Of a DNA stretch of 64,000 nucleotides, positions 6,940-48,340 are shown in pieces. The translations under genes were made by a program, and so were the position numbers. Origin of the DNA: Candidatus Woesearchaeota archaeon. GTDB taxonomy: Archaea; Nanobdellota; Nanobdellia; Woesearchaeales; JAHWIC01. The stretch is taken from assembly GCA_019322805.1 (NCBI GenBank), contig JAHWIC010000001.1, forward strand, positions 132,150 to 196,149. The letters run 5' to 3'. Every line of letters starts with the position of its first letter. Positions within the stretch are counted from its first letter, which is position 1. Under the pieces are notes generated by a model. That model ran no database searches and was not told the origin of the DNA. It saw only the letters and a list, made by a program, of their open reading frames with translations.

Positions 6940-6942
6940 TGT

Positions 6943-8586: not shown

Positions 8587-8634
8587 AATATCACCTAGAG
8601 AAACAGTATCCTAGAATATTTAAATAGGTTTGTG

Positions 8635-9261: not shown

Positions 9262-9349
9262 ATAGATTTAGGTTTGATTACTACTATTTATATCTTTTTT
9301 TACAACTATAAAGGAAAGATTTATATAATTTATATAATTTTTTTATTAT

Positions 9350-10513: not shown

Positions 10514-10531
10514 AAAAGAATAAAATAGAAA

Positions 10532-11533: not shown

Positions 11534-11540
11534 TTTATTA

Positions 11541-11579
11541 CCTCCAAATTTATTTGGAGGCCAGGAAAACTTGTTTTCC
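11541..11579 (-). promoter_or_regulatory. Two leader hairpins immediately upstream of ilvC. The first sequesters the GGAGG Shine-Dalgarno.
   Basis: On the minus strand, CCTCCAAATAAATTTGGAGG forms a perfect 9-bp stem whose 3' arm is the GGAGG 8 nt before the ilvC ATG. It is preceded by GGAAAACaaGTTTTCC. Confidence 0.4.
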
Positions 11580-11627
11580 GCTGCCCCCTATTTTTTATTT
11601 TGTTAATTAAAGAGTATTTATAAGCCT

Positions 11628-11918
11628 TTAGGACATGAGTTCTAAAGCGTCTTGACCAATCATGCCCTCGCTTACTCCAATTTCCTTTGCCTTATTGCTT
11701 ACTTTAACCACTTTTGCTTTTAGCATATCGTCGAATGTTTTAACTCCAGTAACAACTGCCATTACATCATCAAACTTATTTGCGACATTGATATCAAAAT
11801 AACCGCAACCTAGTAATCCATTCTTTGTTTTTATCAACAATATATTGACATTGCCAGTAAAAACATTGACTCCTTCTGCTTCTGTATCATTAATCTTTAT
11901 CTTTTTTGTTGTTATCAT
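11628..11918 (-). CDS. Small conserved hypothetical protein (DUF-type).
   Basis: 96-aa ORF with ATGA-overlap coupling to the downstream Lrp-like gene. Confidence 0.4.
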   Translation of the reverse strand: MITTKKIKINDTEAEGVNVFTGNVNILLIKTKNGLLGCGYFDINVANKFDDVMAVVTGVKTFDDMLKAKVVKVSNKAKEIGVSEGMIGQDALELMS

Positions 11919-12154
11919 TTGATGTATTCAGCAACTATCATTGTTGATGAGTTTTCTATGCCTTCTATGGATCTTATTTTTTCTGTTAATATTCTGTCTA
12001 AATCTTCCAGTTTCTGCAAATCCAGCCTTGAGATGATGTCCCAGTCACCATAAAGCTCATTCACTTCCGCAACTTCTTTGATCAATTCTAAACTGGTTAC
12101 TATACTTCTTTCTGAACCAGCCTTTACCTTTAACAAAACGTATGCTTTTACCAT
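11915..12154 (-). CDS. Stand-alone Lrp/AsnC C-terminal (RAM) ligand-binding domain protein.
   Basis: 79 aa beginning MVKAYVLLKVKAGSERSIVTSLELIKEVAEVNELYGDWDIISRLDL, a typical AsnC-type RAM domain. Confidence 0.65.
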   Translation of the reverse strand: MVKAYVLLKVKAGSERSIVTSLELIKEVAEVNELYGDWDIISRLDLQKLEDLDRILTEKIRSIEGIENSSTMIVAEYIK

Positions 12155-12194
12155 TTTATCACCAACTTAATATATCACTAGGTTAAATTTCATC

Positions 12195-12290
12195 GAGCAC
12201 AATTAGTTGTGCACTTGATTCTTTTTATCAACATTAAATCATCATTTAAAAACAATTAATAAATCTGAAAATTCCTTGCACAACCAGGAT
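12195..12290 (+). repeat. Intergenic repeat family, copy A (GCACAAttagTTGTGC hairpin, then T-run, then AAAAACAATTAATAAAT box).
   Basis: Shares the GCACAATTAGTTGTGCACTTGAT core and the A/T box with copies at 41445 and 55950. Confidence 0.6.
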
Positions 12291-12505
12291 AAAGGTTATA
12301 GTAAGCGAAATTATATAATCAATAGTTTCGCTTACTAAATAGTAAACGCAATCTTTCATAAAATAGTTGCGTTTACTAAATTTTCATCTGCTTTCTTTCC
12401 TTTAAGTCATGGTATAAAGGAACTATGGATGATGATTTTTGCTTTAAAGTAAGGAATAAAGCAAAAATCAGATTTATTATTTTTCTATTGATTCTTTTAA
12501 TTGAT

Positions 12506-13633
12506 TTATTTCCTTATTTTAGCTACAACAGCATCTCCCATATCTGAGGTTGAGGCTTTACCACCTAAGTCTTTTGTTTTGACTTTCCCTTGTTTCAAAA
12601 CCTTTTCTATAGCATCAACTATTTGTTTTGCTGCTTTTGGCTGTCCAATTTCATCAAGCATCATTGCTCCTGCCCATATTGTTGCTAAAGGATTTGCAAC
12701 ATTCATTCCTTTATATTTAGGAGCAGAGCCATGAATAGGCTCAAACATTGAAATTCCACCCGGATTTATATTTCCACCAGGTGCTAAGCCTAGGCCGCCC
12801 TGTATCATTGCGCCTAAATCAGTTATAATATCACCAAACATGTTTGGTGTTACAACAACCTGATACCATTCCGGGTTTTTAACAAACCACATTGTGATCG
12901 CATCTACAAAATTGAATTCATGCTGTATTCTTGGATATTGTTTCGAGACCTTTTCAACTATCTCTCTCCAGAAATTATAGACATCTGACAAAACATTTGC
13001 TTTGTCAACAGCTGTTACCTTGTTTTTCTTCTTTTTCTTTGCAAGCTCAAAAGCATATTTTATAACTCGCTCAGAGCCTTTTTTAGACAAAACTCCTATT
13101 TGATAAGCTATCTCAGAGCCTTCTGATTCAATATCTAAGCCAAACTTAATCTTGTATAAGCTCCTTAATACCTCAAGCTCTTGCTTGTTTTTTCCTGGCT
13201 TCACTTTATTGCCTATCCCAACATAGAAATCCTCAGTATTTTCTCTAACAACATCAAAGTTAATATCCGCTGGACCTTTATCTTTCAATGGACACCAAAC
13301 CCCTTCAAGTAACTTAATTGGCCTTAGGTTTACAAACTGATCAAAATAGAATCTTGTTTTCAATAAAATGCCTTTTTCTAAAACTCCGGGCTTGCATCGC
13401 GGGTCTCCTAAAGCACCCAAGTAGATTGCCTTGCAGGTGTTTTTTATTTCTTTAAGAGTATCCTCACTAATTAATTCCTTTGTCTTAAGATATTTTTCAG
13501 CTCCATTATCATATTCTATCCAGTCAATCTCAAAATTATTTAGTTCTGAAACTGCATCAATTACTTTAACTCCTTCTCTAACTATTTCAGGACCAATACC
13601 ATCTCCAGGTATTTTTGCTATTTTGTATTTCAT
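12506..13633 (-). CDS. leuB: 3-isopropylmalate dehydrogenase.
   Basis: 375 aa, isocitrate/isopropylmalate dehydrogenase family motifs (GDGIGPEI..., NLFGDIITD). Confidence 0.9.
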
Positions 13634-14109
13634 TTCTTGATATAGTTAAGTAAGCCCCCTTCTTTTATTATATCTAAAGCAAATTTAGGAAAAGGCGTGA
13701 ATTTAAATTCTTTTTTGTTTGTTAAGTTTTTTATTGTTCCTTTTTGTACATCAATCTCTAAATTATCTCCGTTTTTAACATTCTTTGCAATATCCTTACA
13801 TTCAATAGCCAAAAAACCATTATTAATCGAATTTCTAAAAAATATCCTAGCAAAACTATTAGCAATTACTGCTTTTACCCCTGCTCCTCTTAGAGCCCAG
13901 ACTGCGTGCTCTCTGCTTGAACCACAGCCAAAGTTCTCTCCAGCTACAATAAAGTCTCCTTTCTTTACTTTTTTAATGAAACCAGCATCTAAATCTTCCA
14001 TTGCGTGCTTTGCTAATTCAGCTTCTTTATCTGTAGTAAGATATCTAGCCGGAATTATTTCATCTGTGTTTATGTGACTCCTCTTGTAAACATGCGCTTC
14101 TCCTCTCAT
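13630..14109 (-). CDS. leuD: 3-isopropylmalate dehydratase small subunit.
   Basis: 159 aa, aconitase swivel domain ([13 protein letters not shown]). Confidence 0.9.
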
Positions 14110-15371
14110 TTTACATACTTCCTTGGATCAGCTATCTTTCCTTCTATCGCTGAAGCAGCGACTGTTGCAGGGCTTGCTAAGTAAACAAAGCTTTTTGGAT
14201 GACCCATTCTTCCTACAAAGTTCCTATTTGTTGATGAAATGCATCTTTCTCCTTCTGCTAATACACCCATATGACCACCCAAGCAAGCACCACATGTTGG
14301 TGTTGATACAGTTGCTCCAAAATCCATGAATATATCCAATAAACCTTCTTTATTTGCTTGTTTCCAGATTTCTGTTGTTGCAGGAACAACTATCATTCTT
14401 GTTCCTTTAGCAATTTTCCTGCCTTTTACAATCGAGGCAGCTATGCGTAAGTCTTCAATTCTTCCATTGGTGCAGCTTCCAAGCCATGCTTGGTCTATTT
14501 TGATGTTTTTTATCTTTGAAATTGGCTTTCCATTTGATGGTAAGTGCGGTAAAGCAACAATTGGCTCAAATTTAGAAGCATCATACTTTTTTACTGCAAT
14601 ATATTTTGCATCTTTATCTGATTTTATTATCTTAAATTTCTTTTTAGTCCTTTTTCTAACATAATCTACGACTTTTTTGTCTGCCTCTATCACTCCTGAT
14701 TTTCCGCCAGCTTCAATCGCCATATTTGTTATTGTCATCCTTGCCTCTACTGACAATGAATCAATTGTTGAACCTGTAAATTCCATTGCCTTGTACAAAG
14801 CTCCATCTACTCCAATATCAGATATTATTTTCAAGATTATGTCCTTTGAATAAACTCCTTTTGGAAGCCTTCCATTTATCACAAACTTAATTGATTCTGG
14901 AACCTTGAACCAAAGCTTTCCTGTTGCTAAAGCTGCAGCTAAATCCGTGCTTCCAACACCTGTTGAGAAAGCTCCAAAAGCTCCATAGGTGCATGTATGA
15001 GAGTCAGCGCCAATAATTAACTCTCCAGGCAGGATATGTCCTTGTTCTGGCAATAAAGCATGACATACGCCATGCCTTCCAACTTCATAATAATTATTAA
15101 TATTGCAGGCCTTAACCCATTCTCTCAATCTTTTTGCAAGTTCTGCTGATTTAATGTCTTTATTAGGAACAAAATGATCCGGAGTTACAACTACCTTGTT
15201 TGGGTCAAATACCTTCTTTATGCCACGCTTATACAACATCTCAATTGCAGGCGGTGTGGTAATGTCGTGACACATGATTATATCTATATCTGCATTAATC
15301 AATTCTCCTGGCTTTACAGATTTTTTACCTGCATGTTTTGCAAGTATTTTTTCAGTTATTGTTTGTGCCAT
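14106..15371 (-). CDS. leuC: 3-isopropylmalate dehydratase large subunit.
   Basis: 421 aa, aconitase family Cys ligands (GSCTNGR..., CGAC). Confidence 0.9.
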
Positions 15372-15412
15372 CTTATGTTTACCTCAGTTCTTAACTATGA
15401 ACATTAATGTCG

Positions 15413-15478
15413 GGGTGGGCCAATCACCCAGTTGTGTAGTATTGGGGAGGTCCAAAATGATTTGCGAAGCAAATCATT
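15413..15478 (-). promoter_or_regulatory. Paired hairpins in the 105-bp spacer between the cupin gene stop and the leuC start.
   Basis: AATGATTTGCgaaGCAAATCATT is a perfect 10-bp stem that overlaps the cupin stop codon. GGGTGggccaatCACCC follows. Confidence 0.35.
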
Positions 15479-15740
15479 ATCCTAAATTGTAATGCTTTCT
15501 TACAGCTTTCTTAATATTCCATTTACATTTCATTCCTTGCGGGAAAACAACCCAGTCACCAGCACCAAAATGGAATTTTTCTCCTTCTTCATTAGTTACT
15601 TCAACATCTCCTTCAAGTATCAGACATGTTTCTTTGTCAGAGTATTCCCATGGAAATTCTGAAGCTTCTTTTTCCCAAATCGGCCATGAGCCTGCTTTTG
15701 ACTTTTCTTCATCAGTTGGTTTTCTTATTTCAATTTCCAT
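15477..15740 (-). CDS. Small cupin-domain protein.
   Basis: 87 aa with G(X)5HXH-less short cupin barrel pattern (GDWVVFPQGMKCKWNI). Confidence 0.6.
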   Translation of the reverse strand: MEIEIRKPTDEEKSKAGSWPIWEKEASEFPWEYSDKETCLILEGDVEVTNEEGEKFHFGAGDWVVFPQGMKCKWNIKKAVRKHYNLG

Positions 15741-16230
15741 TTTGAGTCCTTGAAACAGCAGTTACCCCTGTTCTGCTTATCTCTCTCACACCAAAAGGCT
15801 TCATAAGCTCAATAAATGAATCAATCTTATCAGGACTTCCTACAAGTTCTGCAGTAACATCCTTTGTTGTGATGTCTACTATCTTTGTTTTGTATATCTT
15901 TGTATACCTTAGTATCTCTTCCTTTGCTTTTTTGTCAGGTAAAGCTACCTTAAGCAAACACAGCTCGCGAATTATTGATTTGTCTGCAGGCATCTCTATA
16001 ACCTTTATTGTATCAACAAGCTTATTGATCTGCTTCTCCACCTGCTCTAATGTTCTATCATCGCCAATAACAGTGATAACCATCTTTGAAATGCCTTTCT
16101 TTGTTGTTTTTCCAACTGTAATTGTATCTATGTTAAAGCCTCTTCTAGCGAACATACCTGCTATGCGAGTTAAAACACCCGGCTGGTCTTCAACAAGCAT
16201 TGCTATTACGTGTTTTTGTTCTTTTGCCAT
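15730..16230 (-). CDS. ilvN: Acetolactate synthase small (regulatory) subunit.
   Basis: 166 aa, N-terminal ACT domain (HVIAMLVEDQPGVLTRIAGMFARRGFNI). Confidence 0.9.
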   Translation of the reverse strand: MAKEQKHVIAMLVEDQPGVLTRIAGMFARRGFNIDTITVGKTTKKGISKMVITVIGDDRTLEQVEKQINKLVDTIKVIEMPADKSIIRELCLLKVALPDKKAKEEILRYTKIYKTKIVDITTKDVTAELVGSPDKIDSFIELMKPFGVREISRTGVTAVSRTQNGN

Positions 16231-16240
16231 TTTGATTCAC

Positions 16241-17947
16241 CTAAAAAAACTGCCCCTGTGCTTTTATACAGCCGCCAAATGCTTCTTTCAAATGGCCGCC
16301 TGGAGACAGCATGGGCAATATATTTGATTCCTGTTCAACATGAACATCAATCACTGTTGTAACATCTGATTTAACTGACTCTTTTAGAGCAGGTCCTAAT
16401 TCAGATGGCTTTGTAACCCTTAGTCCTTTTAATCCGTAGGCTTCCGCAACCCTAACAAAGTCAGGTACTTTTCCAAGCCATACTTGTGAGTAGCGCTTAT
16501 GGAAAAATATCTCTAACCATTGTCTAACCATTCCTAAATAAGAGTTGTTCATAATAATAACATTTGTTTTGATGCCTTCTTCTTTTGCTGTACCAAGCTC
16601 TTGTATGTTCATCTGGAATGAGCCATCTCCATCTATGCAAAAGACCCGGTTATTTGGTTTAGCAACCTTTGCTCCTAAAGCGGCGGGCAGACCAAAACCC
16701 ATTGTTCCTGCACCGCCTGAACTAATAAAAGTCCTAGGCTTTGAGCGCTTTATATAATGCATTGCAAACATTTGATGCTGGCCAACCCCTGTTGTAACTA
16801 TATCTTCTGGCTTCAAGATTTTATTTAATTCGTCCATAACCATCTTTGGGTGTATCCCCGATGATTTGAATTTAACGCACTTATCGCATGTTGCTTTAAG
16901 CTCTCTCATCCTTTTTGACCATTCGCTTTCCTGGCTTTTCTTGAGCAATTTCCTTAATGCTGCTGTTAGAGCATTTATTGAATTCTTTGCATCTCCAACT
17001 ATTGGAATGTCTACCTTAACATTTTTTCCTATTTCAGCTGGGTCTATGTCTATATGAATGACTTTTGCATTCTCTGCGTATGTTTTCAGGTTTCCTGTGA
17101 TTCTGTCAGAGAATCTGCAGCCAATAGCAATGATTAGATCTGCGTGAACTGATGCGTAATTGGCTATCTTTCTTCCATGCATTCCTACATTGCCAAGGAT
17201 TAATGGATGTCGTTCATCGACAGCCCCTTTACCCATCATTGTTGTAGCTGCTGGTATTCTTAATAACTCGAGCAATTCGTTGATTTCTTTTGAAGCATTG
17301 GCTATTATAACCCCCCCGCCAACAAGCAACAATGGCCTTTGAGCCTTTAAAATAGCTTCTGCAGCTCTTTTTATCTGCATTGGGTTTGGCTGCAAGGTTG
17401 GCTGGAAGCCTTCTATCATAACTTCCTTTGGTAAATCCCCATTTACTTCTCCAACCTGAGGATCTTTTGGAAGGTCTATGTAAACTGGTCCTGGTCTTCC
17501 TTCTGATGCAATCTTATATGCTTTCATTATCATTGGAACTACATCTTTTTGGCTTCTCATCTGGAAGTTATGCTTTGTAATAGGCAGGGTAATCCCCATC
17601 ATATCTGTTTCCTGGAAGGCGTCATTTCCAATCAAACTAACTGGAACTTGCCCACCAAAAGCTATTATAGGAGATGAATCCATGTAAGCATTCATTATTC
17701 CTGTAACTAGGTTTGTGGCTCCTGGTCCAGAGGTTGCAATGCAAACTCCCACTTTGCCTGATGCACGAGCATAGCCTTCTGCGGCATGGGCTGCTCCTTG
17801 TTCATGCCTAACCAGAACATTCTTGATCTTTCCATGATAATCCAAGAAAGCATCGAATAGTGGTATGACTGAGCCTCCTGGAAATCCAAAGGTTATATCT
17901 GTTCCTTGTTTAAGCAAGGTTTTAACGATTGCTTCTGATCCTTTCAT
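16241..17947 (-). CDS. ilvB: Acetolactate synthase large subunit (ThDP-dependent).
   Basis: 568 aa, ThDP-binding motif GDGSFQMN and an FAD-binding middle domain. Confidence 0.95.
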   Translation of the reverse strand: MKGSEAIVKTLLKQGTDITFGFPGGSVIPLFDAFLDYHGKIKNVLVRHEQGAAHAAEGYARASGKVGVCIATSGPGATNLVTGIMNAYMDSSPIIAFGGQVPVSLIGNDAFQETDMMGITLPITKHNFQMRSQKDVVPMIMKAYKIASEGRPGPVYIDLPKDPQVGEVNGDLPKEVMIEGFQPTLQPNPMQIKRAAEAILKAQRPLLLVGGGVIIANASKEINELLELLRIPAATTMMGKGAVDERHPLILGNVGMHGRKIANYASVHADLIIAIGCRFSDRITGNLKTYAENAKVIHIDIDPAEIGKNVKVDIPIVGDAKNSINALTAALRKLLKKSQESEWSKRMRELKATCDKCVKFKSSGIHPKMVMDELNKILKPEDIVTTGVGQHQMFAMHYIKRSKPRTFISSGGAGTMGFGLPAALGAKVAKPNNRVFCIDGDGSFQMNIQELGTAKEEGIKTNVIIMNNSYLGMVRQWLEIFFHKRYSQVWLGKVPDFVRVAEAYGLKGLRVTKPSELGPALKESVKSDVTTVIDVHVEQESNILPMLSPGGHLKEAFGGCIKAQGQFF

Positions 17948-17955
17948 TTTTACAC

Positions 17956-19524
17956 CTACAAACTCTCCCGTGTTTTCTCTTTTATTTTCTTGAAACTTAA
18001 AGCTTTGTTTATTCCCTTTATTAAAGCTTCTGCTGAAGCCATTATTACATCCTCGTTAACAGCTTCTGCTGAAAAAACATTTCCTTTTTTATCTTCGATC
18101 TTGATTGTTACATCTGCTAATGCGTTTGTTCCTCCTGTGATTGCCTTAAGGTTATATTCCTTTAATGTAACTTCTGGGCCTATTATATTGCCTACAGCAT
18201 GTGAGACAGCGTCAACAGGACCTACGCCTTGACCAGTCCCTGCCCTCTTTTTTCCATTTATTATCAAGGTGACTGTCGCAGTTGGTGTTGTTTTGTTTCC
18301 TGTCTCTACTTTTACTTCATCCAAGACAACATTTTGCTCTTCTTCTGATAAAGTGCCTATAACATCATTAGCTATTGCTATTATATCCTCCCTAACTACT
18401 TCTTTCTGCTTGTCTGCAAGCTCCTTTATCTTAGACATTATCTGATCAATATGCTTTTTTGATAATTCGTAGCCCATATCCTTTAGTACAGCCTCTACAG
18501 CATGTCTGCCTGAGTGTTTGCCTATTACTAGGCCTGTTCCTGTCCAGCCAACATCGCCTGGCTTCATAATCTCATATGTTGCTTTTGCTGAAAGTACACC
18601 ATGCTGATGTATTCCTGCTTCATGGGCAAATGCATTTAAGCCAACAATGGCTTTATTTCTCTGGACTCTTAGGCCAGTTAAGTCTGAAACCATTCTTGAG
18701 GTTTTGTAAATCTCTTTTGTGTTGATTGTTGTTGTAAAGTTCTTGAAAAAGTCCTTTCTTGTCTTTAGGTTCATTACAACTTCTTCTAAGCTACAGTTAC
18801 CTGCACGCTCTCCGATTCCATTTACACAGCACTCTACTTGTGTTGCACCATTCTGTATTCCTGCAAGTGAGTTAGCTACTGCAAGCCCCAAATCATTATG
18901 GCAGTGTACACTTACTGTTATGTTTTTTGCTTCTGGAACCTTTTCAAACAAATACTTGATTCTATAACCAAACTCCTCTGGTTCTGCATAGCCAACTGTG
19001 TCTGGAATGTTAATGGTTGTTGCGCCTGCTTTGATTGCAGCCCTTACAACATCGCACATATAATCAAGGTCAGTCCTAGCAGCATCCTCTGGACTAAATT
19101 CAACATCCTTGCAATATTTGCTAGCGTGTTTGACTCCTTCTGTAACCATCTTGATTATCTCTTTCTTTGATTTTCTTAGTTTCTTTTCTATGTGAATCTG
19201 AGATGTTGCAATAAAGGTATGGATTCTTGGTTTCTTTGCATATCTTACAGCTTTCCAAGCCCTGTCAATATCCTCTTTCATAACCCTGGCTAAGCCGCAG
19301 ATTATGGGTCCTTTTACTTCCCTAGCAATAAGCTTAACAGCCTCAAAATCACCTTCAGAGCTTATAGGAAAACCTGCTTCAATTATATCTACACCAAGCC
19401 TAGCTAGTTGTTTAGCTATGATTAGCTTTTCCTGGATTGTTAAGGAAGCACCAGGTGACTGCTCACCATCTCTAAGTGTAGTATCAAATACCTTGATCTT
19501 TGTTGGTTGTTTTGTTGAAGTCAT
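17956..19524 (-). CDS. leuA: 2-isopropylmalate synthase (or citramalate synthase of the same family).
   Basis: 522 aa, FDTTLRDGEQSPG DRE-TIM barrel N-terminus and C-terminal LeuA-dimer regulatory domain. Confidence 0.9.
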   Translation of the reverse strand: MTSTKQPTKIKVFDTTLRDGEQSPGASLTIQEKLIIAKQLARLGVDIIEAGFPISSEGDFEAVKLIAREVKGPIICGLARVMKEDIDRAWKAVRYAKKPRIHTFIATSQIHIEKKLRKSKKEIIKMVTEGVKHASKYCKDVEFSPEDAARTDLDYMCDVVRAAIKAGATTINIPDTVGYAEPEEFGYRIKYLFEKVPEAKNITVSVHCHNDLGLAVANSLAGIQNGATQVECCVNGIGERAGNCSLEEVVMNLKTRKDFFKNFTTTINTKEIYKTSRMVSDLTGLRVQRNKAIVGLNAFAHEAGIHQHGVLSAKATYEIMKPGDVGWTGTGLVIGKHSGRHAVEAVLKDMGYELSKKHIDQIMSKIKELADKQKEVVREDIIAIANDVIGTLSEEEQNVVLDEVKVETGNKTTPTATVTLIINGKKRAGTGQGVGPVDAVSHAVGNIIGPEVTLKEYNLKAITGGTNALADVTIKIEDKKGNVFSAEAVNEDVIMASAEALIKGINKALSFKKIKEKTRESL

Positions 19525-21783: not shown

Positions 21784-21921
21784 ATGTACCGCAGATATAT
21801 TGAATCTGAAACGAGCAAATGCCCAAAATGCGGGCATCAGATTAAGTCATGGGAGTATAAATGCCCTAAGTGCGGCACAGAAAGAAAAGAGGAAAAAAAA
21901 GAAATTAGTCTATCAGAATAG
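21784..21921 (+). CDS. Small CPxCG zinc-ribbon protein (45 aa), missing from the ORF track.
   Basis: MYRRYIESETSKCPKCGHQIKSWEYKCPKCGTERKEEKKEISLSE has two CPKCG knuckles. It overlaps the leuS 3' end on the opposite strand. Confidence 0.45.
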   Translation: MYRRYIESETSKCPKCGHQIKSWEYKCPKCGTERKEEKKEISLSE

Positions 21922-24556
21922 CAGGCTTTCCAGGGCTTGCGTTTCTTGCTTTTGCTTCTTTGCTGTCTTCTGATTTAACAATCTCAACATCGCAGTTAAA
22001 TTCTTTCTTAATAAAATCCTTAGCTTCCTCTAATGTTTTAAGCTCTGTTTCCTGGTCAAGAACCACCTGAGGGATCTTGGTGGTGTCTTTAATTAATGAA
22101 GGGACTAATTTTGAAATGTCAGAACCATGCGGCTTTAAGTCCTTTTCAGCCATGCATACTGAGATTAGCGCTTTTGCATCTCTAGTTTTTTCTATTTCTT
22201 TCTTTATGATGCTCATAAACAGATATTTCCAAGCTGGCGATATAATTAAAGTAATCTTTCCTGGTTTATCCACCTTGATTAGCTTTAAAACGCGATTAAT
22301 ATCAGATATTGTAGTATGAATCATATCTTCCGAAGCTTCTGCTTTGTCATCTATTTTTTTCTCGTCATATTCTGGCCAGCTAGCAAGAGAAACGAATGGC
22401 TTATTTCCAAGCCTTTCCCACATCTCCTCGCAAGTATGAGGAACAAAAACACTCATTAGCTTAACTAATCTTTCAAGCACAGACTTATTTACAGTTTCTT
22501 TAGAATAAAGATAATTCGTAAGCTCCATAAGGCTGATTACAGCCATATTGAATTTCATTCCTTCGATATATTCTGTAACCTCTTTTATTGTCTTGTTTAT
22601 CTTGCTTTCCTGTTTTGCATCAACTTCATCAACCAATTTCTTATCAACTAAACTATAAAGTTTATTTAAGAATCTAAAGCTGCCTTCAACTCCTTCATCA
22701 TTCCATTCCATATCCTTGTCAGGACCTGCAACAAACAGCAAAAACAGCCTGCCTGTATCAATTCCATATTTATTGGAGACTTCCTCAGGCAAAACAACAT
22801 TTCCTTTTGATTTTGACATTACTACTCCATTTTTATGCAGCATTCCTTGATTGAATAATGTTTTAGCCGGCTCATCAAAGTCTAATAGACCCAAATCGCG
22901 AAGGAATTTTGTATAGAATCTAAAATAGATAAGATGCATACAAGCATGCTCTTTTCCGCCTATATACATGTCAACAGGCATCCAATACTTTACTTTTTTA
23001 GGGTCAAAGATTTTTTTGTCATTATGTGCATCACAATACCTTAAGAAATACCACGAACTGTTAACAAAGGTGTCCATTGTGTCTGTCTCGCGCTTTGCAT
23101 TTCCGCCACATTTAGGACATTTAACATTAACAAAAGGTTTGTAGCCAACTAATGGATTTTTTGCACTTGTGAATTTTATGTCTTCTGGCAGTTTAACAGG
23201 CAAATCCTTCTCAGGAACAGGCATGATGCCGCACTCATCGCAATAGATTATTGGTATTGGTGTTCCCCAGAAACGCTGCCTTGAAACTAACCAATCTCTC
23301 AGCTTGTATTGTGTGGTAAACCTGCCACACTTACGCTTCTCTAAGAACTTTGTAATTTCTTCGATTGCATCACGGTTATTCATCCCGTCAAACTGCTGAG
23401 AATTGACCATATTGCCGTCTCCCATATATGCACGAGACATCTTTTTTGGGTCTAGCTCATAATCGGGGGGGTTTAATATAACTTTAATAGGTATATTATA
23501 CTTCTTTGCAAACTCAAAATCACGCTGGTCATGTGCAGGCACAGCAATTATAGCTCCAGTACCATACTCATAAAGAACAAAATTAGCAATATAGATAGGG
23601 ACCTTTTCCTTGGTTATAGGATTTATTGCATATCTGCCAATAAACATCCCTTCTTTTTCCTTGTCTTCTGCAGTACGCTCAAACTTATCTTCCATTATAA
23701 CTTTTTTCACAAATTCTGTGACTGCTTTTTCCTGCTCAGTTCCTTTAACTAACTCTGCAACATCAGGATGCTCAGGAGCATAAACAAGGAATGTTATGCC
23801 AAAAAAGGTATCTGCTCTTGTTGTGAAAACAGTTAATTTCTTGTCAGAACCTTCAATCTCAAAATCCATCAAGGTTCCGCGACTTTTTCCTATCCAGTTT
23901 GTCTGCATTATCTTTACATCTTCGCTCCAGTCAAGCTTAGCAGTATCCTTCAATAACTCCTCAGCGTAATCGGTTATTTTAAGGAACCATTGATTAAGCT
24001 CTTTTAATTCAACCAGTGTATCAGTATGTCTCCAGCATTTGCCATCATGTACTTGCTCATTAGCTAAAACGGTGTTACACTTAGGGCACCAATTTGCAAA
24101 AGCCTTTCTTTTGTAAGCAAGACCTTTCTCGTACATCTTAAGAAATATCCATTGATCCCATTTATAGTAATCCGGCTTATGCGTTTCAACCATGCGATCC
24201 CAATCATAACTTAAGCCAAGGCTCTTTTGCTGTTTTATGAAAGTAGCAATAGATTTCTCTGTAAAGATCTTTGGATGGCTCTTTTCCTTAATAGCAGCGT
24301 TCTCTGCAGGCAATCCTAATGAATCATAGCCCATTGGATAAAGAACATTAAAGCCCTGCATACGCTTGAATCTTGCAAACGCGTCACCAATGCAGTAATT
24401 CCTTGCATGGCCCATATGCAATCCCGACCCACTTGGATAAGGATACATCTCTAGAACATAATACTTCTTTTTCTTGGGGTCTTCCTTTACCTTGAATATT
24501 CCCTTGTCTGCCCATTTCTTCTGCCATTTTTGGGCTATTTTATTGAAGTCTGTCAT
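21905..24556 (-). CDS. leuS: Leucyl-tRNA synthetase.
   Basis: 883 aa, HMGHARNY (HIGH-type) and KMSKS (VMSKSKGN) class I motifs, CP1 editing domain. Confidence 0.95.
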   Translation of the reverse strand: MTDFNKIAQKWQKKWADKGIFKVKEDPKKKKYYVLEMYPYPSGSGLHMGHARNYCIGDAFARFKRMQGFNVLYPMGYDSLGLPAENAAIKEKSHPKIFTEKSIATFIKQQKSLGLSYDWDRMVETHKPDYYKWDQWIFLKMYEKGLAYKRKAFANWCPKCNTVLANEQVHDGKCWRHTDTLVELKELNQWFLKITDYAEELLKDTAKLDWSEDVKIMQTNWIGKSRGTLMDFEIEGSDKKLTVFTTRADTFFGITFLVYAPEHPDVAELVKGTEQEKAVTEFVKKVIMEDKFERTAEDKEKEGMFIGRYAINPITKEKVPIYIANFVLYEYGTGAIIAVPAHDQRDFEFAKKYNIPIKVILNPPDYELDPKKMSRAYMGDGNMVNSQQFDGMNNRDAIEEITKFLEKRKCGRFTTQYKLRDWLVSRQRFWGTPIPIIYCDECGIMPVPEKDLPVKLPEDIKFTSAKNPLVGYKPFVNVKCPKCGGNAKRETDTMDTFVNSSWYFLRYCDAHNDKKIFDPKKVKYWMPVDMYIGGKEHACMHLIYFRFYTKFLRDLGLLDFDEPAKTLFNQGMLHKNGVVMSKSKGNVVLPEEVSNKYGIDTGRLFLLFVAGPDKDMEWNDEGVEGSFRFLNKLYSLVDKKLVDEVDAKQESKINKTIKEVTEYIEGMKFNMAVISLMELTNYLYSKETVNKSVLERLVKLMSVFVPHTCEEMWERLGNKPFVSLASWPEYDEKKIDDKAEASEDMIHTTISDINRVLKLIKVDKPGKITLIISPAWKYLFMSIIKKEIEKTRDAKALISVCMAEKDLKPHGSDISKLVPSLIKDTTKIPQVVLDQETELKTLEEAKDFIKKEFNCDVEIVKSEDSKEAKARNASPGKPAILID

Positions 24557-25624: not shown

Positions 25625-25987
25625 TTAACCGATTATCCTTATCTTTTTGCCTTTAGGGTCTTCCTTAAGCAATTCTGATATCTGGACTATTTTCGAGCCT
25701 GATTTCTGGATCTTGTCTTTGGCTGCGCCTGAAAACTTAAAAGCTGCTATCGTGAGTTTTTGATTCAGGTCTCCACCAGCAAGGACTTTTCCTGGCACAA
25801 CGACTGTTTCATTCTCCTTTGCATACCTATCTATTCTTGAAAGATTTACTATTCTTCTGTCCCTTGTAGGTCTCTCTAGATCTGTAGCTATTCTTTTCCA
25901 TAAAGGAATCTTTTTCTCTATTGATTGTTTCTTCAATTCACTTATTAAACCCAAAAGACTTGGGTTTGTTGGTCCTGTTGTCTTCAT
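25625..25987 (-). CDS. rpl18e: 50S ribosomal protein L18e (eL18).
   Basis: 120 aa. Its position upstream of L13-S9-rpoN matches the conserved archaeal operon. Confidence 0.8.
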   Translation of the reverse strand: MKTTGPTNPSLLGLISELKKQSIEKKIPLWKRIATDLERPTRDRRIVNLSRIDRYAKENETVVVPGKVLAGGDLNQKLTIAAFKFSGAAKDKIQKSGSKIVQISELLKEDPKGKKIRIIG

Positions 25988-26005
25988 TTTGATTTATTTT
26001 TATAA

Positions 26006-26060
26006 TGCGGGAGACGGGTCTTACGAGCCATAATTCCTCCGGAATTAACGGCATTCGAAG
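26006..26060 (-). repeat. 55-nt direct duplicate of the 3' portion of the adjacent tRNA-Leu(GAG) gene (T-loop + T-arm intron + acceptor 3' strand + discriminator).
   Basis: Identical to 26135-26189. Homology extends degenerately about 10 nt further (GCTGCG-TCGGC vs GCTGCGCGGG). Confidence 0.7.
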
Positions 26061-26135
26061 CCGACGCAGCTGAAAAGTCAGCTGGCACCTTCGTGGGTTT
26101 CCTCGCTTCGCTCGTCAAGCCCACTTAACTATGAT

Positions 26136-26281
26136 GCGGGAGACGGGTCTTACGAGCCATAATTCCTCCGGAATTAACGGCATTCGAACCCGCGCAGCCA
26201 CTAAGGCACAAGGCCCTCAACCTTGCTCATTTGACCATTACAGCCTTAAGCAAATGCTCAAAGGTCTCTGACACCCCCGCA
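26136..26281 (-). tRNA. tRNA-Leu(GAG) (class II) interrupted by two non-canonical introns. Intron 1 is in the D-loop (about 26239-26263, 25 nt). Intron 2 lies between the T-loop and the T-stem 3' strand (about 26148-26182, 34 nt).
   Basis: Minus strand: acceptor GCGGGGG/CTCCCGC + A73; D-stem TCA/TGA; D-loop GAGACC[intron]TGGTCAAA; anticodon arm CAAGG-TTGAGGG-CCTTG; variable arm GCC-TTAGT-GGC; T-arm GCGGG-TTCGAAT-[intron]-CCCGT. The mature length is 87 nt. Confidence 0.7.
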
Positions 26282-26292: not shown

Positions 26293-27078
26293 TTATTTTG
26301 CAATATTTGTGGCTAACTCGTCAAGCTGCTCCTTGAAAACCTTTGCAGCTTCTAAGACCATTTTCTTAGGGTCAAGCTGACCCCATGACTCTATATAAAA
26401 AACAAATTCTGTATTATCACAGTTGAGTTTTATGCCTTCATCTGCATCAGAGCATGCTTCGCATAGATGGCAGTTAAGCAATTTATCCTTGTTTATTACA
26501 AGCTTTCCTTCTTTTAGCTCAAATATGTTTACTGGGCAAGCTTCTACAACAGCCTCAGGATTTTTCACATGCCCAATCTCAATTGATGGCCTATATTTGT
26601 AATAAACCAAGCCTGGGCTCCACTTCATATGTTCCTTGCCTTGACCTAGCACTGCTGTTGCCTCTATTTCTATATCCTGTCCCTTAAGCAGCTTCACTAT
26701 AGGAAGCTTAGGATGAACTGGCTTTATTGCTGAATCCTTTGACTTTATGTCTGAAGCGTAAACCACAGCAGGACCTTTTGCCTTCAAGGTCATCTTAAGC
26801 TGGCATCTTGCACAGCCTTCACCCTTGCACTTGCATTTTTCTGGTAGATTGTATGACTTAATGTCTGTTGTTAGAGGTATCAAGCCAAGCCTATGCGCTA
26901 CCATCTCGTCGTATAGGATTGAGTTGTTTTTTCTTAACTCAACATTCTCAATCGCCATTACAGGCACTTCTTCTGATGTCAACCTACGTAAAGCATTCGC
27001 AAAGGCTGGTGTTGATCCCTTTAAAATAAAAGATAATTTTCCAGCTTCTTTGTCCTTTTCGAGCATTCGTATTTCCAT
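26293..27078 (-). CDS. rpoD: DNA-directed RNA polymerase subunit D (Rpb3 homolog) with an Fe-S (ferredoxin-like) insert.
   Basis: 261 aa, cysteine clusters CKCKGEGCARC and CHLCEACS, conserved position before S11-S4-S13. Confidence 0.9.
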   Translation of the reverse strand: MEIRMLEKDKEAGKLSFILKGSTPAFANALRRLTSEEVPVMAIENVELRKNNSILYDEMVAHRLGLIPLTTDIKSYNLPEKCKCKGEGCARCQLKMTLKAKGPAVVYASDIKSKDSAIKPVHPKLPIVKLLKGQDIEIEATAVLGQGKEHMKWSPGLVYYKYRPSIEIGHVKNPEAVVEACPVNIFELKEGKLVINKDKLLNCHLCEACSDADEGIKLNCDNTEFVFYIESWGQLDPKKMVLEAAKVFKEQLDELATNIAK

Positions 27079-27481: not shown

Positions 27482-28159
27482 TTATTTCTCCTCCTTAGTT
27501 TCTTCCTTCTTCTCTTTTGGTTTTTTCTCTTCTTTTGATTCCTTTTTCTCTTCCTTCTTTTTTTCACTCTTAGCCCTTCTCTTCCTTCCTTGTTTCTTCT
27601 TTGGAGATTTCTTTTTTTCTTCTTCTTTTTTGGCTGGCTTTTTTTCTTCAACAGCCCTTTCTGGATGATCAGGATTTGATAGTGCAGATCCAGTTCCAAA
27701 ATTTATTGAAGCTTCTTCATCCCTTGATACAAGATAAGAAGGTGAGGTGATGTTCTTACCACCAACGTAGACGTGGTTATGGCTTATGAATTGTCTTGCT
27801 TGCTTTACTGATCTTGCCAGGTTTCTCTTGAAAACCAATGTCTGTAGTCTTCTGTTCATTATATCCTTAAGGGTTATTGTCAATACATCCTCAAGTTTTG
27901 AATCCTTTTCAAGCAAAGCCAATGAATATAATTTTGCTAAGAGTTGAGCTCTTTCAATCTCAGACTGTTTTGTTTGAATGGTGGTTAGTTTCTTTGCTTG
28001 CTCATAGAATTTCTTTAGGATGGAATTCATCTTCCATATCTCACGCTTATTCTTCAGGCCATATTCTTTAAAAAGGGTCTTTTCCTCGTCTATCCTGCTC
28101 TTCTGCCAGGGGTGAGTTGGAGGATAGAACTTCTTTTTCTGTTTCTTTATATCTCCCAT
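27482..28159 (-). CDS. rps4: 30S ribosomal protein S4 (uS4) with a lysine/glutamate-rich C-terminal extension.
   Basis: 225 aa. The S4 domain is followed by [14 protein letters not shown]...KEEK. Confidence 0.9.
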
Positions 28160-28871: not shown

Positions 28872-28979
28872 CTGTTATGGTGGCCATGGTGTAGCTCGGC
28901 AGCACTGGAGACACGTTTTAAACGCTTCAATGTGGTATGCCATGCAGAAATCTCCTAGGGCGAGTTCAAATCTCGCTGG
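28872..28979 (+). tRNA. Intron-containing tRNA (Glu/Gln-like D-arm). A 39-nt insert lies between anticodon stem halves GGAGA/TCTCC, i.e. a 32-nt intron plus the loop. The anticodon is unresolved and CCA is encoded.
   Basis: Acceptor GTGGCCA/TGGCCAC + C73 + CCA; D-arm GTGT-AGCTCGGCA-GCAC; T-arm GCGAG-TTCAAAT-CTCGC; 4-nt variable loop; T-rich stretch after the 3' end. No placement of the intron yields a loop with U33. Confidence 0.55.
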
Positions 28980-28988
28980 CCACCCCAT

Positions 28989-47889: not shown

Positions 47890-48340
47890 AGATTTAAATA
47901 GTTTTCTAACGACTGGTTACGCTCGCCTTGTCCGCGAGCTTGCTCGTGGACTCGCAAGCAAATTGACACGCAATGAGGGTTTCCTCGCGGATAACGCCAT
48001 AAACGCTTCGCGTTTAATTTCACCGCTCGTCAAGCCCTCCAACTGCAACTGGATGTTTTACATTTTGTATACGCTACATTCACATAGCCTCTAAAGGAAT
48101 ATACGGCTGCCGGGACTTCCGAACATTGGAACGACAACGTCATTCCGGGCTTGGGTCCTCTTGCGAGAACTGTGGGCCGCACCTTTCGAACCCGGGTAGC
48201 AAGCTTATTCCAGCTTTATGGGAAGCTCGAATCATACCGCTAGATCACAGCCGTATAATTGGAAGGTATTCTCTTTATGATTTAAAATTTTGTATGTCTG
48301 GATTATCACTGCACGATAGGAACTTTTAAATAATATTATA
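47890..48340. ncRNA. GC-rich, ORF-poor structured block: candidate ncRNA of unknown class (strand undetermined).
   Basis: GC content is far above the genome background and the block has multiple stem-forming segments. A bipartite motif GGGCTTGACGAGCG...CGAGGAAACCC is shared with 26081-26125. The 67-aa ORF at 48126-48329 is probably spurious. Confidence 0.35.

What the first reader, a model, noticed from the sequence alone, without database searches (positions are those of the whole stretch)
26006..26281. tRNA-Leu(GAG) split by two non-canonical introns (D-loop and T-arm) with a 55-nt duplicate of its 3' end nearby
On the minus strand a complete class-II tRNA-Leu is recovered only after removing a 25-nt insert inside the D-loop (between GAGACC and TGGTCAAA) and a 34-nt insert between the T-loop (TTCGAAT) and the T-stem 3' strand (CCCGT). 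With those removed, acceptor, D, anticodon (loop UUGAGGG), variable (GCC-TTAGT-GGC) and T arms all pair and A73 is present. Introns at these positions are known only from a few archaeal lineages (Thermoproteales, some DPANN). About 75 nt downstream of the gene on the minus strand, the last 55 nt of the gene (T-loop, T-arm intron, T-stem 3' strand, acceptor 3' strand, discriminator) are repeated exactly. That pattern is the footprint expected from integrase-mediated insertion/excision into a tRNA 3' end. Alternatively the copy could be a relic split-tRNA 3' half.
Basis: seen in the sequence. Interest (0 to 1): 0.8.

Follow-up and report, generated by a model that had tools for sequence, protein, structure and literature searches.

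The report
Twice-interrupted tRNA-Leu with duplicated tail
A leucine tRNA gene of a tiny (Woesearchaeota/DPANN) archaeon is split by two introns, and its duplicated 3' end flanks a 74-base insertion of a hairpin element that forms tRNA introns in related genomes, which bears on how archaeal tRNA introns spread.

Summary
On the minus strand, 26280..26135 is a tRNA-Leu(GAG) gene interrupted twice. It lies between rpoD and rpl18e, where relatives carry the same tRNA, intact or differently interrupted.

The D-loop intron is 28 nt at position 15/16, not 25 nt. The T-loop intron is 34 nt at 59/60. The mature tRNA is 84 nt. It is found by ARAGORN at default settings, matches intron-free orthologues, and its cloverleaf is backed by covariation. 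Both junctions have relaxed bulge-helix-bulge (BHB) geometry.

Multi-intron tRNAs are already described for DPANN archaea. All four tRNA genes I recognised in the window are interrupted.

The 55-nt exact repeat (63 nt at 97%) is also real and is absent from four close relatives. The 74 nt between the copies is not filler. It holds two hairpins that recur in related genomes inside tRNA introns. They also recur in short inserts flanked by 12-68-nt duplications of a gene end.

The best reading is that a small intron-type hairpin element was inserted and the target was duplicated. No integrase is present, and a split-tRNA half is not supported. The insertion mechanism is inferred, not shown.

The parts
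26135..26280 (-). tRNA-Leu(GAG) gene: three exons and two introns, 146 nt; mature tRNA 84 nt
   Evidence: In-silico spliced sequence is found by ARAGORN at default. The syntenic orthologues are tRNA-Leu(GAG). Cloverleaf covariation supports it.
26266..26280 (-). Exon 1 (positions 1-15: acceptor 5' strand, U8 G9, D-stem 5' strand, A14 G15)
   Evidence: Matches L024, L046 and L051 intron-free sequence GCGGGGGTGTCAGAG|TGG.
26238..26265 (-). D-loop intron, 28 nt, position 15/16, relaxed HBh' motif. H = UCAG/CUGU (3 of 4 pairs); bulges AG|A and AA|U; h' is an 8-bp hairpin; there is no exonic outer helix.
   Evidence: The same BHB register is best in the window, L002 and L011. The same intron in L044 and L048 carries a U->C change that turns a G.U pair into G-C in h'. 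The site is uninterrupted in L046 and L051.
26183..26237 (-). Exon 2 (rest of D-loop, anticodon arm with GAG, variable arm GCC-UUAGU-GGC, T-stem 5' strand, T-loop 54-59)
26149..26182 (-). T-loop intron, 34 nt, position 59/60, hBHBh'-like. h = T-stem (5 bp); H = UUCG/CGUA (3 of 4 pairs); bulges AA|U and AG|A; inner hairpin UAAUUCC-GGA-GGAAUUA.
   Evidence: The same register, with h = 5 and H = 3-4 of 4, holds in all six T-loop introns analysed. L051 has the uninterrupted T-arm GCGGG UUCGAAA CCCGU. Homologous introns occur in L002, L045 and L048.
26135..26148 (-). Exon 3 (A60, T-stem 3' strand, acceptor 3' strand, discriminator A73)
26134..26188 (-). Repeat copy 1 (55 nt exact; 26130-26192 at 97%). 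It is part of the functional gene: T-loop, intron, exon 3 and the first trailer base.
26060..26133 (-). 74-nt insert between the exact repeats; G+C 57% against 37% for the window
   Evidence: It is absent from L048, L045, L002 and L046.
26093..26124 (-). Core hairpin GUGGG-CUUGACGAGC-GAA-GCGAGGAAA-CCCAC (two tandem G.A positions, GNA triloop)
   Evidence: A second copy lies at 47975-48039 (0.08 expected by chance). Eight metagenome copies were found. The outer stem covaries: GA/UC, GU/AC, GG/CC (alignment).
26067..26089 (-). Terminal hairpin GGUGCCAGCUGACUUUUCAGCUG, lying 3-7 nt from repeat copy 2
   Evidence: It matches 21/23 the 5' end of the tRNA-Gly(CCC) canonical intron in L042. It matches 22/23 the end of the insert between S11 and rpoD in L026.
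26005..26059 (-). Repeat copy 2 (55 nt exact; 26001-26063 at 97%), a non-functional duplicate. It carries G53->C, and its upstream sequence GCUGCGUCGGC compares with the native GCUGCGCGGG.
26293..27078 (-). rpoD (RNA polymerase subunit D). Its stop codon lies 12 nt before the tRNA.
25625..25987 (-). rpl18e. Its start codon lies 18 nt after the tRNA-like 3' end of repeat copy 2 (26006); L13, S9 and RpoN follow.
47975..48039 (-). Second, longer copy of the core hairpin, inside a G+C-rich element about 170 nt long, 62 nt downstream of tRNA-Gly(CCC)
   Evidence: Its flank resembles the L046 tRNA-Leu T-loop intron (p = 0.01).

Best explanation
**The tRNA gene (shown by sequence and comparison).** 26280..26135 (minus strand) is the single-copy, syntenic tRNA-Leu(GAG) gene of a Woesearchaeota-type archaeon. 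It sits inside the S13-S4-S11-RpoD-[tRNA]-L18e-L13-S9-RpoN operon. It is interrupted by a 28-nt intron at 15/16 and a 34-nt intron at 59/60.

**Splicing (inferred from established archaeal tRNA splicing).** The precursor folds so that each exon-intron junction forms a relaxed bulge-helix-bulge motif. At the D-loop the D-stem 5' strand pairs with the intron's 3' end. At the T-loop, U54-G57 pairs with the intron's 3' end on top of the T-stem. A broad-specificity splicing endonuclease (EndA) would cut after the second base of each 3-nt bulge, and RtcB would join the exons. The product is an 84-nt tRNA to which CCA is added.

**The insertion (part shown, part inferred).** After the lineage split from L048-like relatives, a hairpin element about 66-74 nt long was inserted directly 3' of the gene. 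The element has a core G.A-rich hairpin and a terminal CAGCUG hairpin. It belongs to a modular family that serves as BHB introns in tRNA genes of related genomes. The event duplicated the 55-66 nt of target running from the T-stem to just past the discriminator. As a result both the tRNA and the rpl18e upstream region stayed intact. Absence of the insert from relatives and homology of the insert are shown. The insertion chemistry is inferred. It could be a staggered break with fill-in, or break repair with template switching at the GCUG microhomology.

**Copy 2.** It is a by-product with no demonstrated function. If transcription reads through, either copy of the 3' splice site plus exon 3 would give the same mature tRNA.
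For: **tRNA**
- ARAGORN finds the corrected spliced sequence at default.
- Exons are identical or nearly identical to intron-free orthologues L024, L046 and L051.
- tRNA-Leu(GAG) occupies the same rpoD-L18e spacer in 22 of the 27 genome loci; in four others the spacer holds no tRNA, and L010 has a fragment, an insert and a complete gene. It also occupies that spacer in relatives fetched later.
- Covariation: 99.6% paired, 13 of 23 pairs with double changes, 0 of 500 shuffles reach the observed value.

**Introns**
- The BHB rule was validated on canonical introns of relatives: H 4 of 4, h = 6, shift 0.
- The same rule picks one register for all three 15/16 introns and for all six 59/60 introns.
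- One substitution in the inner intron helix (h') turns a G.U pair into G-C in L044 and L048.
- Close relatives form an allelic series with the same exons but different intron sets.
- Three further interrupted tRNAs lie in the window, and all are detected after splicing.
- The literature reports that DPANN EndA types carrying the L3 loop go with more disrupted tRNA genes, and that some DPANN tRNA sets are incomplete (PMC5829648).

**Insertion**
- The repeat is real.
- Empty sites exist in L048 (same two introns), L045, L002 and L046.
- Independent unitigs break at the repeat borders.
- The insert's core hairpin occurs again in the window and in 8 DPANN-like metagenome loci. Five of these are inside tRNA introns.
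- The terminal hairpin matches the L042 tRNA-Gly intron end 21/23 and the L026 insert end 22/23. These regions were not forced by the search pattern.
- Analogous short inserts flanked by duplicated gene ends occur in five other loci:
  - L035: 19 nt of a tRNA 3' end, 112-nt insert.
  - L025: 12 nt of the tRNA-Leu 3' end, 50-nt insert.
  - L026: about 24 nt of the S11 3' end.
  - L030: 17-25 nt of a tRNA 5' end.
  - L038: 57-68 nt of a protein gene's 5' end.
  - Sources.
Against: - There are no transcript data, so splicing and read-through are untested.
- Both BHB motifs are imperfect. Each H helix has one mismatch, and the D-loop site has no outer helix.
- No EndA gene lies in the 64-kb window, so the enzyme type is unknown here.
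- For the insertion, the number of flanked inserts is small (six). Duplication lengths vary from 12 to 68 nt, unlike classical transposons. No terminal inverted repeats were noticed by eye at the insert ends (not searched formally), and no transposase was found.
- The second window copy (48 kb) has no flanking duplication.
- The metagenome search forced 26 core positions, so core conservation cannot be taken as evidence.
- Similarity among the non-core parts of some inserts is weak (p about 0.01-0.02).
- The window's copies are in the opposite orientation, relative to the neighbouring tRNA, to the intron copies.
Confidence: 0.6

Rival explanations
1. Integrase footprint. A virus or plasmid whose attP carried the 3' part of tRNA-Leu (including the T-loop intron) integrated by site-specific recombination, giving attL and attR. 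Nearly all of the element was later deleted, leaving 74 nt.
For: A direct repeat of a tRNA 3' part that reconstitutes the gene is the classical att signature; SSV1 (44 bp) and the pNOB8 type are described in PMC3293823. The site is empty in relatives. The same locus in L010 holds a tRNA-Leu 5' fragment, a 0.9-kb element with a LAGLIDADG ORF, and a complete tRNA-Leu. This shows that larger mobile DNA does target this locus.
Against: No integrase or recombinase lies between the repeats or among the window ORFs scanned. The 74 nt is homologous to tRNA-intron hairpin modules, not to coding remnants. All six comparable flanked inserts are 50-112 nt, which is not expected from random decay of kilobase-sized elements. 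No copy of the repeat or of the insert was found in viral contigs.
Confidence: 0.17
2. Break-repair artefact with no dedicated mobile element. A double-strand break or stalled fork at the tRNA 3' end was repaired by microhomology-mediated template switching. This copied about 70 nt from an intron elsewhere in the genome and then re-copied the target.
For: There is microhomology at the right junction: the element ends CAGCUG and the target reads GGCUGCG. Two changes cluster within 7 nt of that junction, while the next 55 nt are identical. L026 has a similar junction (CAGCTGGA against target GGTGGA). Duplication lengths vary from 12 to 68 nt.
Against: The same hairpin modules recur at the same end of independent inserts in different genomes (window, L026, L042). 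Core-bearing inserts recur in L030 and L038. This points to an element-specific process rather than random filler DNA.
Confidence: 0.15
3. Functional second 3' half. Copy 2 is a split-tRNA 3' half or an alternative 3' exon, used in trans or in cis to build a tRNA.
For: Copy 2 keeps H5' (UUCG), both bulges, the intron hairpin and exon 3 unchanged. A transcript spanning both copies could therefore be spliced from the first 5' site to the second 3' site and give the same tRNA (inference).
Against: A complete gene lies directly upstream. Copy 2 lacks a T-stem 5' strand, because G53->C breaks the first pair. No cloverleaf can be built from the insert plus copy 2: ARAGORN finds nothing in the raw region, and the insert shows no significant similarity to the tRNA 5' part (p = 0.25). 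L048 has the same two introns and only one copy. I saw no leader complementary to another locus.
Confidence: 0.04
4. Assembly artefact. The duplication arose from a mis-join of strain variants in a metagenome assembly.
For: The source is a MAG contig (longest contig 261 kb). Repeats shorter than the read length can be mis-resolved.
Against: Logan k=31 unitigs from SRR14699988 end and start exactly at the repeat borders. This requires both left contexts (G+R, C+R) and both right contexts (R+C, R+T) in the reads. The 74-nt insert must be joined to the repeat on both sides. Similar structures occur in unrelated assemblies: L035, L038, L030 and L026.
Confidence: 0.04

Closest known systems
Multi-intron archaeal tRNA genes with non-canonical BHB introns. 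Examples: Thermoproteales; ARMAN/Micrarchaeota; DPANN lineages including Woesearchaeota RBG_13_36_6 in Kaneta et al. 2018 (PMC5829648).
   Same: Short protein-spliced introns lie outside position 37/38, here at 15/16 and 59/60. Junction motifs are relaxed (HBh', hBH). One gene carries several introns. Standard tRNA finders miss the genes.
   Different: Nothing is different in kind. This is a further example, with an unusually clear allelic series (0-3 introns on identical exons) among close relatives. The EndA of this genome was not seen in the window.
tRNA fragments left by integrating elements. Examples: SSV1 and pNOB8-type att duplications; tRNA-Thr-F plus a 1.8-kb recombinase element in Caldiarchaeum (Sugahara et al. 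2012, PMC3293823).
   Same: A direct repeat of a tRNA end flanks inserted DNA. The gene is kept intact. The site is empty in relatives. Intron sequence lies inside the repeated segment.
   Different: The insert is only 74 nt and has no ORF or recombinase. It is homologous to tRNA-intron hairpins. Repeat length varies widely among the analogous cases (12-68 nt), and those cases include ends of protein-coding genes.
tRNA intron transposition in Thermoproteales (Fujishima et al. 2010, as summarised in PMC4090602)
   Same: Related intron sequences are found in different tRNAs and at different positions: the core hairpin occurs in tRNA genes I read as Thr, Arg, Gly and Ala (L037, L043, L042, L033; these assignments are by eye and were not run through ARAGORN). 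D-loop introns are similar in Leu(GAG) and Leu(CAA).
   Different: Here copies of the intron modules also lie outside tRNA genes and are flanked by target duplications. I did not find this reported in the papers read. The mechanism of transposition is stated there to be unknown.
Split and permuted tRNA genes (Nanoarchaeum, Caldivirga, Thermofilum; PMC3218864)
   Same: A separate piece of DNA carries a tRNA 3' portion together with BHB-forming sequence.
   Different: A full gene is present. There is no complementary leader or trailer pair, and no evidence that copy 2 is needed.
Miniature non-autonomous elements and retroposon-like inserts with target-site duplications
   Same: [quoted passage not shown] Filled and empty sites both exist.
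   Different: No terminal inverted repeats were noticed by eye. Duplication length is variable and unusually long. No transposase, integrase or reverse transcriptase was identified.

Membership tests
Archaeal protein-spliced (BHB) tRNA intron | Removing the insert restores a canonical cloverleaf with conserved tRNA positions. | tested here: met
   ARAGORN finds the 84-nt product at default. Covariation across 23 orthologues supports the cloverleaf.
Archaeal protein-spliced (BHB) tRNA intron | Orthologous genes lack the insert at exactly that site. | tested here: met
   The 15/16 site is uninterrupted in L024, L046 and L051. The 59/60 site is uninterrupted in L051 and L024.
Archaeal protein-spliced (BHB) tRNA intron | There is a bulge-helix-bulge at the junctions: a 4-bp central helix with 3-nt bulges cut after base 2. 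| tested here: inconclusive
   The geometry and register are conserved across relatives. However, H has 3 of 4 pairs at both window sites, and the D-loop site lacks the outer helix. These are relaxed forms, as known for broad-specificity enzymes.
Archaeal protein-spliced (BHB) tRNA intron | The genome encodes a splicing endonuclease able to cut relaxed motifs. | not testable with these tools
   No tRNA_int_endo hit was found among about 55 window ORFs, and the rest of the genome is not available. The literature reports alpha4 EndA with the L3 loop in DPANN (PMC5829648).
Archaeal protein-spliced (BHB) tRNA intron | Spliced mature tRNA and a circular intron are observed. | not testable with these tools
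   No transcript data are available.
Integrase-mediated att duplication at a tRNA gene | [quoted passage not shown] | tested here: met
Integrase-mediated att duplication at a tRNA gene | An integrase or recombinase gene, or its remnant, lies between or next to the repeats. | tested here: not met
   The 74-nt insert has no ORF. Pfam scans of the window ORFs found no recombinase.
Integrase-mediated att duplication at a tRNA gene | A matching attP exists on a virus or plasmid. | tested here: not met
   The repeat pattern and the insert hairpins gave 0 hits in viral contigs. The collection may simply lack DPANN viruses.
Split tRNA 3' half | No intact gene exists for that tRNA, and the half carries a leader complementary to the trailer of the 5' half. 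| tested here: not met
   An intact gene lies directly upstream. The insert shows no significant similarity or complementarity to the 5' part. L048 has a single copy.
Transposable element of MITE type | There are multiple dispersed copies, with both filled and empty sites. | tested here: met
   Two copies lie in the window and eight in metagenome loci. Empty sites are shown.
Transposable element of MITE type | The element has terminal inverted repeats and a target-site duplication of fixed length. | tested here: not met
   No terminal inverted repeats were seen by eye at the insert ends (not searched formally). Duplications measure 12, 17-25, 19, about 24, 55-66 and 57-68 nt.

The most novel reading that the evidence does not exclude
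The two-hairpin modules (a G.A-rich core plus a terminal CAGCUG-type hairpin) may define a previously undescribed class of small mobile DNA in Woesearchaeota/DPANN archaea. On this reading they insert with long target duplications of variable length. When they land in a tRNA gene at a site that can form a BHB, they persist as tRNA introns. The window would then show an off-target landing caught in the act. That would give a concrete, testable mechanism for archaeal tRNA intron gain and transposition, whose mechanism the literature calls unknown.
Probability: 0.3. Interest if true: 0.8.

Novelty: new variant of a known kind. Interest (0 to 1): 0.5.

Why it matters
**The tRNA itself is ordinary.** A multi-intron tRNA is a routine example of a known DPANN peculiarity. 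It still matters for annotation: all four tRNA genes I recognised in this 64-kb window are invisible to standard finders, so tRNA complements of such genomes are undercounted.

**The wider point is intron mobility.** Close relatives carry 0 to 3 introns, of different sequence families, on identical tRNA-Leu exons. Modules of those introns also occur outside tRNA genes, flanked by duplicated target sequence. How archaeal tRNA introns are gained and move between genes is an open question; reviews state that the mechanism is unknown and presumed to act on DNA. If the flanked inserts are fresh insertion products, they show what an insertion event looks like. The question could then be tested by comparative genomics and by experiment.

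Tried and rejected
**Detection on raw or reader-spliced sequence**
- ARAGORN and Rfam on the raw sequence found nothing.

**A second tRNA in the insert plus copy 2**
- No cloverleaf could be built.
- Similarity of the insert to the tRNA 5' part is not significant (p = 0.25).

**Collection searches**
- An exact or degenerate search for the repeat found no hits in viral or JGI metagenome contigs.
- The insert hairpins found no hits in viral contigs.

**Naming the core hairpin**
- It has no Rfam family, even at E<=10.
- By eye I considered and dropped three identities: a C/D box sRNA (no CUGA D box in register), a hammerhead (C3 is missing and the stem topology is wrong), and a canonical K-turn (two extra A between the G.A pair and the C-stem).
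- It contains GCGAAGC. From memory, this is a very stable DNA mini-hairpin. That is a lead only.

**Other checks that led nowhere**
- The second window copy has no flanking duplication.
- Similarity between the window insert and the L025 insert is marginal (p = 0.016).
- Pfam scans of about 55 window ORFs for EndA, integrase, transposase or reverse transcriptase found none.
- nhmmer with the core alignment against all fetched loci found no further copies.
- Metagenome hits L031, L032, L034, L036, L040 and L041 (G+C 0.43-0.66, apparently coding) were judged to be chance matches.
Full report
**Setting**

The window is AT-rich (37% G+C). It carries archaeal RNase P and SRP RNAs. RpoD relatives are Woesearchaeota/Nanoarchaeota MAGs. 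The identical L18e protein cluster is named Candidatus Woesearchaeota archaeon, with a longest contig of 261 kb.

The finding lies on the minus strand inside the conserved operon S13-S4-S11-RpoD-[26280..26001]-L18e-L13-S9-RpoN-LeuRS.

**Checking the observation**

The repeat is real. It is 63 nt at 97% identity (26001-26063 and 26130-26192). The exact core is 55 nt (26005-26059 and 26134-26188).

ARAGORN finds no tRNA anywhere in the window. Rfam finds nothing in the region, even at E<=10.

Comparison with relatives resolves this. In 22 of the 27 genome loci fetched with RpoD, the spacer between rpoD and rpl18e holds tRNA-Leu(GAG). It is intron-free and ARAGORN-detected in seven loci and interrupted in 15. 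Four other loci have no tRNA in that spacer, and L010 is a special case described under side observations.

With that correction, and the T-loop insert in the 59/60 register, the 84-nt product is detected at default settings.

Closer relatives fetched through protein look-ups settle both borders. L046 and L051 have GTCAGAGTGGTCAAA uninterrupted. L051 has GCGGGTTCGAAACCCGT uninterrupted, on otherwise identical exons.

An alignment of 23 spliced or intact orthologues fits the class-II cloverleaf. It gives 99.6% paired cells and compensatory changes in 13 of 23 pairs. No shuffle reaches the observed values, and slid controls reach 37-56%.

**Intron anatomy**

I used the standard archaeal rule: a 4-bp central helix flanked by 3-nt bulges, each cut after its second base. 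The rule reproduces the canonical 37/38 introns of relatives perfectly (H 4 of 4, outer helix 6 bp, shift 0).

The same rule selects a single register for the three 15/16 introns:
- window: H = UCAG/CUGU
- L002: H = UCAG/CUGC
- L011: H = CCGG/CCGG

It also selects a single register for all six T-loop introns analysed. In these, H5' is U54-R57, the T-stem serves as the outer helix, and the intron ends ..RAAG|N or similar.

In the window each H helix has one mismatch, and the D-loop site has no exonic outer helix. These are relaxed motifs. The inner helix of the D-loop intron is supported by a G.U to G-C change in L044 and L048. The minimum-free-energy fold of the 146-nt precursor keeps the acceptor, anticodon and variable arms (z = -3.0).

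**How ordinary the interrupted tRNA is**

Kaneta et al. 2018 (PMC5829648) report three relevant points. DPANN lineages carry EndA variants with an extra loop. These variants go with a marked increase in disrupted tRNA genes. tRNA sets of some DPANN genomes, which included a Woesearchaeote, could not be completed.

The window agrees. Three more interrupted genes were found by looking at G+C-rich islands and T-loop motifs:
- tRNA-His(GTG), 28879-28984 (+), introns at 32/33 and 37/38
- tRNA-Leu(CAA), 41687-41853 (+), introns at 15/16 and 37/38
- tRNA-Gly(CCC), 48254..48102 (-), introns at 37/38 and 59/60

All three are detected by ARAGORN after in-silico splicing.

Among close relatives the tRNA-Leu(GAG) exons are constant, while the introns differ:

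| Locus | 15/16 intron | 37/38 intron | 59/60 intron | 3' insert and duplication |
|---|---|---|---|---|
| L051 | none | present | none | none |
| L046 | none | none | 81 nt, a different family | none |
| L045 | 39 nt (a second sequence type) | none | present | none |
| L002 | 39 nt (as L045) | present | present | none |
| L044 | 28 nt (as window) | 32 nt | present (contig ends inside it) | not visible |
| L048 | 28 nt (as window) | none | 34 nt (as window) | none |
| window | 28 nt | none | 34 nt | present |

Sources.

**The duplication**

Four close relatives, including L048 with the same two introns, run straight from the discriminator into the rpl18e start region. The window therefore gained 129 nt: a 74-nt insert plus a second copy of the 55-mer.

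Independent k=31 unitigs from SRR14699988 terminate exactly at the borders of the 55-mer on both sides. This argues against an assembly artefact.

The insert has 57% G+C and folds into two hairpins. It is not similar to the 5' part of the tRNA.

The first hairpin is GUGGG CUUGACGAGC GAA GCGAGGAAA CCCAC. It occurs once more in the window, in a longer form, 62 nt downstream of tRNA-Gly (47975-48039; 0.08 expected by chance).

A degenerate pattern of this hairpin found 14 metagenome loci. Eight are AT-rich, DPANN-like contigs. In five of these (L033, L037, L039, L042, L043) the hairpin lies inside a tRNA intron. By eye I read four of the host genes as Thr, Arg, Gly (37/38 introns) and Ala (D-arm intron); L039's was not assigned. 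These assignments were not run through ARAGORN.

Because the pattern fixed 26 core bases, core conservation is not evidence. Three independent features support homology and structure:
- The closing pairs outside the pattern covary (GA/UC, GU/AC, GG/CC; alignment).
- The apical extension covaries between the window's long copy and L030 (AAACGC/GCGUUU against AAAUGC/GCAUUU).
- The insert's second hairpin, which was not in the pattern, matches the 5' end of the L042 tRNA-Gly intron 21/23 and an insert in L026 22/23. It has no other match in 346 kb of fetched DNA.

**A recurring pattern**

In L026 the second hairpin ends an insert of about 80 nt between the S11 stop codon and the rpoD start codon. 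That insert is flanked by a direct repeat of about 24 nt of the S11 3' end.

Four further cases are similar:
- L035: a 112-nt insert ending ..AAGCUG, flanked by an exact 19-nt repeat of a tRNA 3' end.
- L025: a 50-nt insert after tRNA-Leu(GAG), flanked by CCUUC(U/C)CCCGCA.
- L030: a core-bearing insert flanked by 17-25 nt of a tRNA 5' end.
- L038: a core-bearing insert flanked by 57-68 nt of the 5' end of a protein gene.

In every case one complete copy of the gene is preserved. Together with the window, that makes six short (50-112 nt), ORF-less, hairpin-rich inserts with duplicated target ends. Several share modules with tRNA introns.

**Interpretation of the duplication**

The simplest reading is that the window's duplication is the footprint of the insertion of such an element. 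The chemistry is not shown.

A classical integrase event is disfavoured. There is no recombinase, no viral attP, and all six inserts are uniformly small.

Template switching during break repair remains possible and may even be the insertion route. The evidence is the microhomology (GCUG) and the two clustered changes at the right junction.

Copy 2 keeps all the intron-proximal BHB parts but has lost the first T-stem pair (G53->C). I found no sign that it is needed.

**Comparison with known systems**

The tRNA is a further member of the known class of multi-intron archaeal tRNAs.

The duplication resembles att-type tRNA fragments, and the Caldiarchaeum case of a tRNA fragment, an element and an intron-bearing tRNA (PMC3293823). 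It differs in the tiny, intron-like insert and in the variable length of the repeats.

It also connects to the proposed tRNA intron transposition, whose mechanism is stated to be unknown and presumed to act on DNA (PMC4090602). In the papers I read I did not find a report of intron modules outside tRNA genes flanked by target duplications. My literature search was limited.

**Side observations**

- L010 has, at the same locus, a 19-nt tRNA-Leu 5' fragment, a 0.9-kb insert encoding a LAGLIDADG-type protein (Pfam E = 7e-13), and then a complete tRNA-Leu(GAG).
- The window carries an ilv/leu biosynthesis cluster. From memory, this is unusual for DPANN.

**Verdict**

- The tRNA itself is an ordinary example for this lineage.
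- The duplicated tail with an intron-type hairpin insert is a new variant worth a systematic census.

Confidence:
- about 0.9 for the tRNA and its introns
- about 0.6 for the insertion-with-duplication reading
- low for any specific insertion chemistry

Noticed in passing
window 28879-28984 (+): tRNA-His(GTG) gene with G-1 and an encoded CCA. It is interrupted by an 18-nt intron at 32/33 (28913-28930) and a 14-nt intron at 37/38 (28936-28949). The canonical BHB helix is complete only after the first intron is removed. ARAGORN and Rfam miss the gene, and ARAGORN finds it after in-silico splicing.
   Followed up: partly
window 41687-41853 (+): tRNA-Leu(CAA) with a 29-nt D-loop intron at 15/16 (41702-41730) and a 54-nt anticodon-loop intron (41754-41807). 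The D-loop intron (ACCTAAAGGCATATGCCCTAAGGCCGGAT) resembles that of tRNA-Leu(GAG) (ACCTTTGAGCATTTGCTTAAGGCTGTAA).
   Followed up: partly
window 48102-48254 (-): tRNA-Gly(CCC) with a 13-nt canonical intron (48206-48218) and a 69-nt T-loop intron at 59/60 (48116-48184). Its orthologue in metagenome locus L042 has instead an 87-nt canonical intron that carries both hairpins of the insert studied here.
   Followed up: partly
window about 47900-48075 (-): A G+C-rich, non-coding element of about 170 nt lies downstream of tRNA-Gly. It holds the long form of the core hairpin (47975-48039). It has no Rfam match and no flanking duplication. Its far end resembles the 5' end of the 81-nt T-loop intron of tRNA-Leu in L046 (ACGACTGGTTACGC / ACAACTGGTTACGC; p = 0.01).
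   Followed up: partly
L010 4842-5856: At the same rpoD-L18e locus there is a 19-nt tRNA-Leu 5' fragment (GCGAGGGTGTCGGAGTGGC). It is followed by an insert of about 0.9 kb encoding a LAGLIDADG-type protein (Pfam LAGLIDADG_3, E = 7e-13). A complete tRNA-Leu(GAG) with a canonical intron follows at 5755-5856.
   Followed up: partly
L027 and L049 (tRNA-Leu(GAG) orthologues): The anticodon loop reads UCGAGGG, with C instead of the near-universal U at position 33, in two independent loci.
   Followed up: no
window 5116-19524 (-): A cluster for branched-chain amino-acid synthesis: class IV aminotransferase, ilvD, ilvC, leuB, leuD, leuC, ilvN, ilvB and leuA by Pfam. From memory, DPANN archaea usually lack such pathways. 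LeuRS (21905-24556) lies next to the operon that holds tRNA-Leu.
   Followed up: no
L020 1284-1500: A tandem array of units about 50 nt long (TTGCATTTTAGAAACCAACAAGACTGTCGTCTTGAGGTTCC...), 96-100% identical to each other, lies upstream of the ribosomal operon in a Woesearchaeota MAG. Its nature is unknown.
   Followed up: no
window 27482-28159 (-): Ribosomal protein S4 has a C-terminal tail of about 60 residues made almost only of K and E (…[55 protein letters not shown]).
   Followed up: no
window 56595-58154 (+): A single 519-aa ORF matches both the small and the large primase subunit families (PF01896 and PF04104). This suggests a fused PriS-PriL.
   Followed up: no
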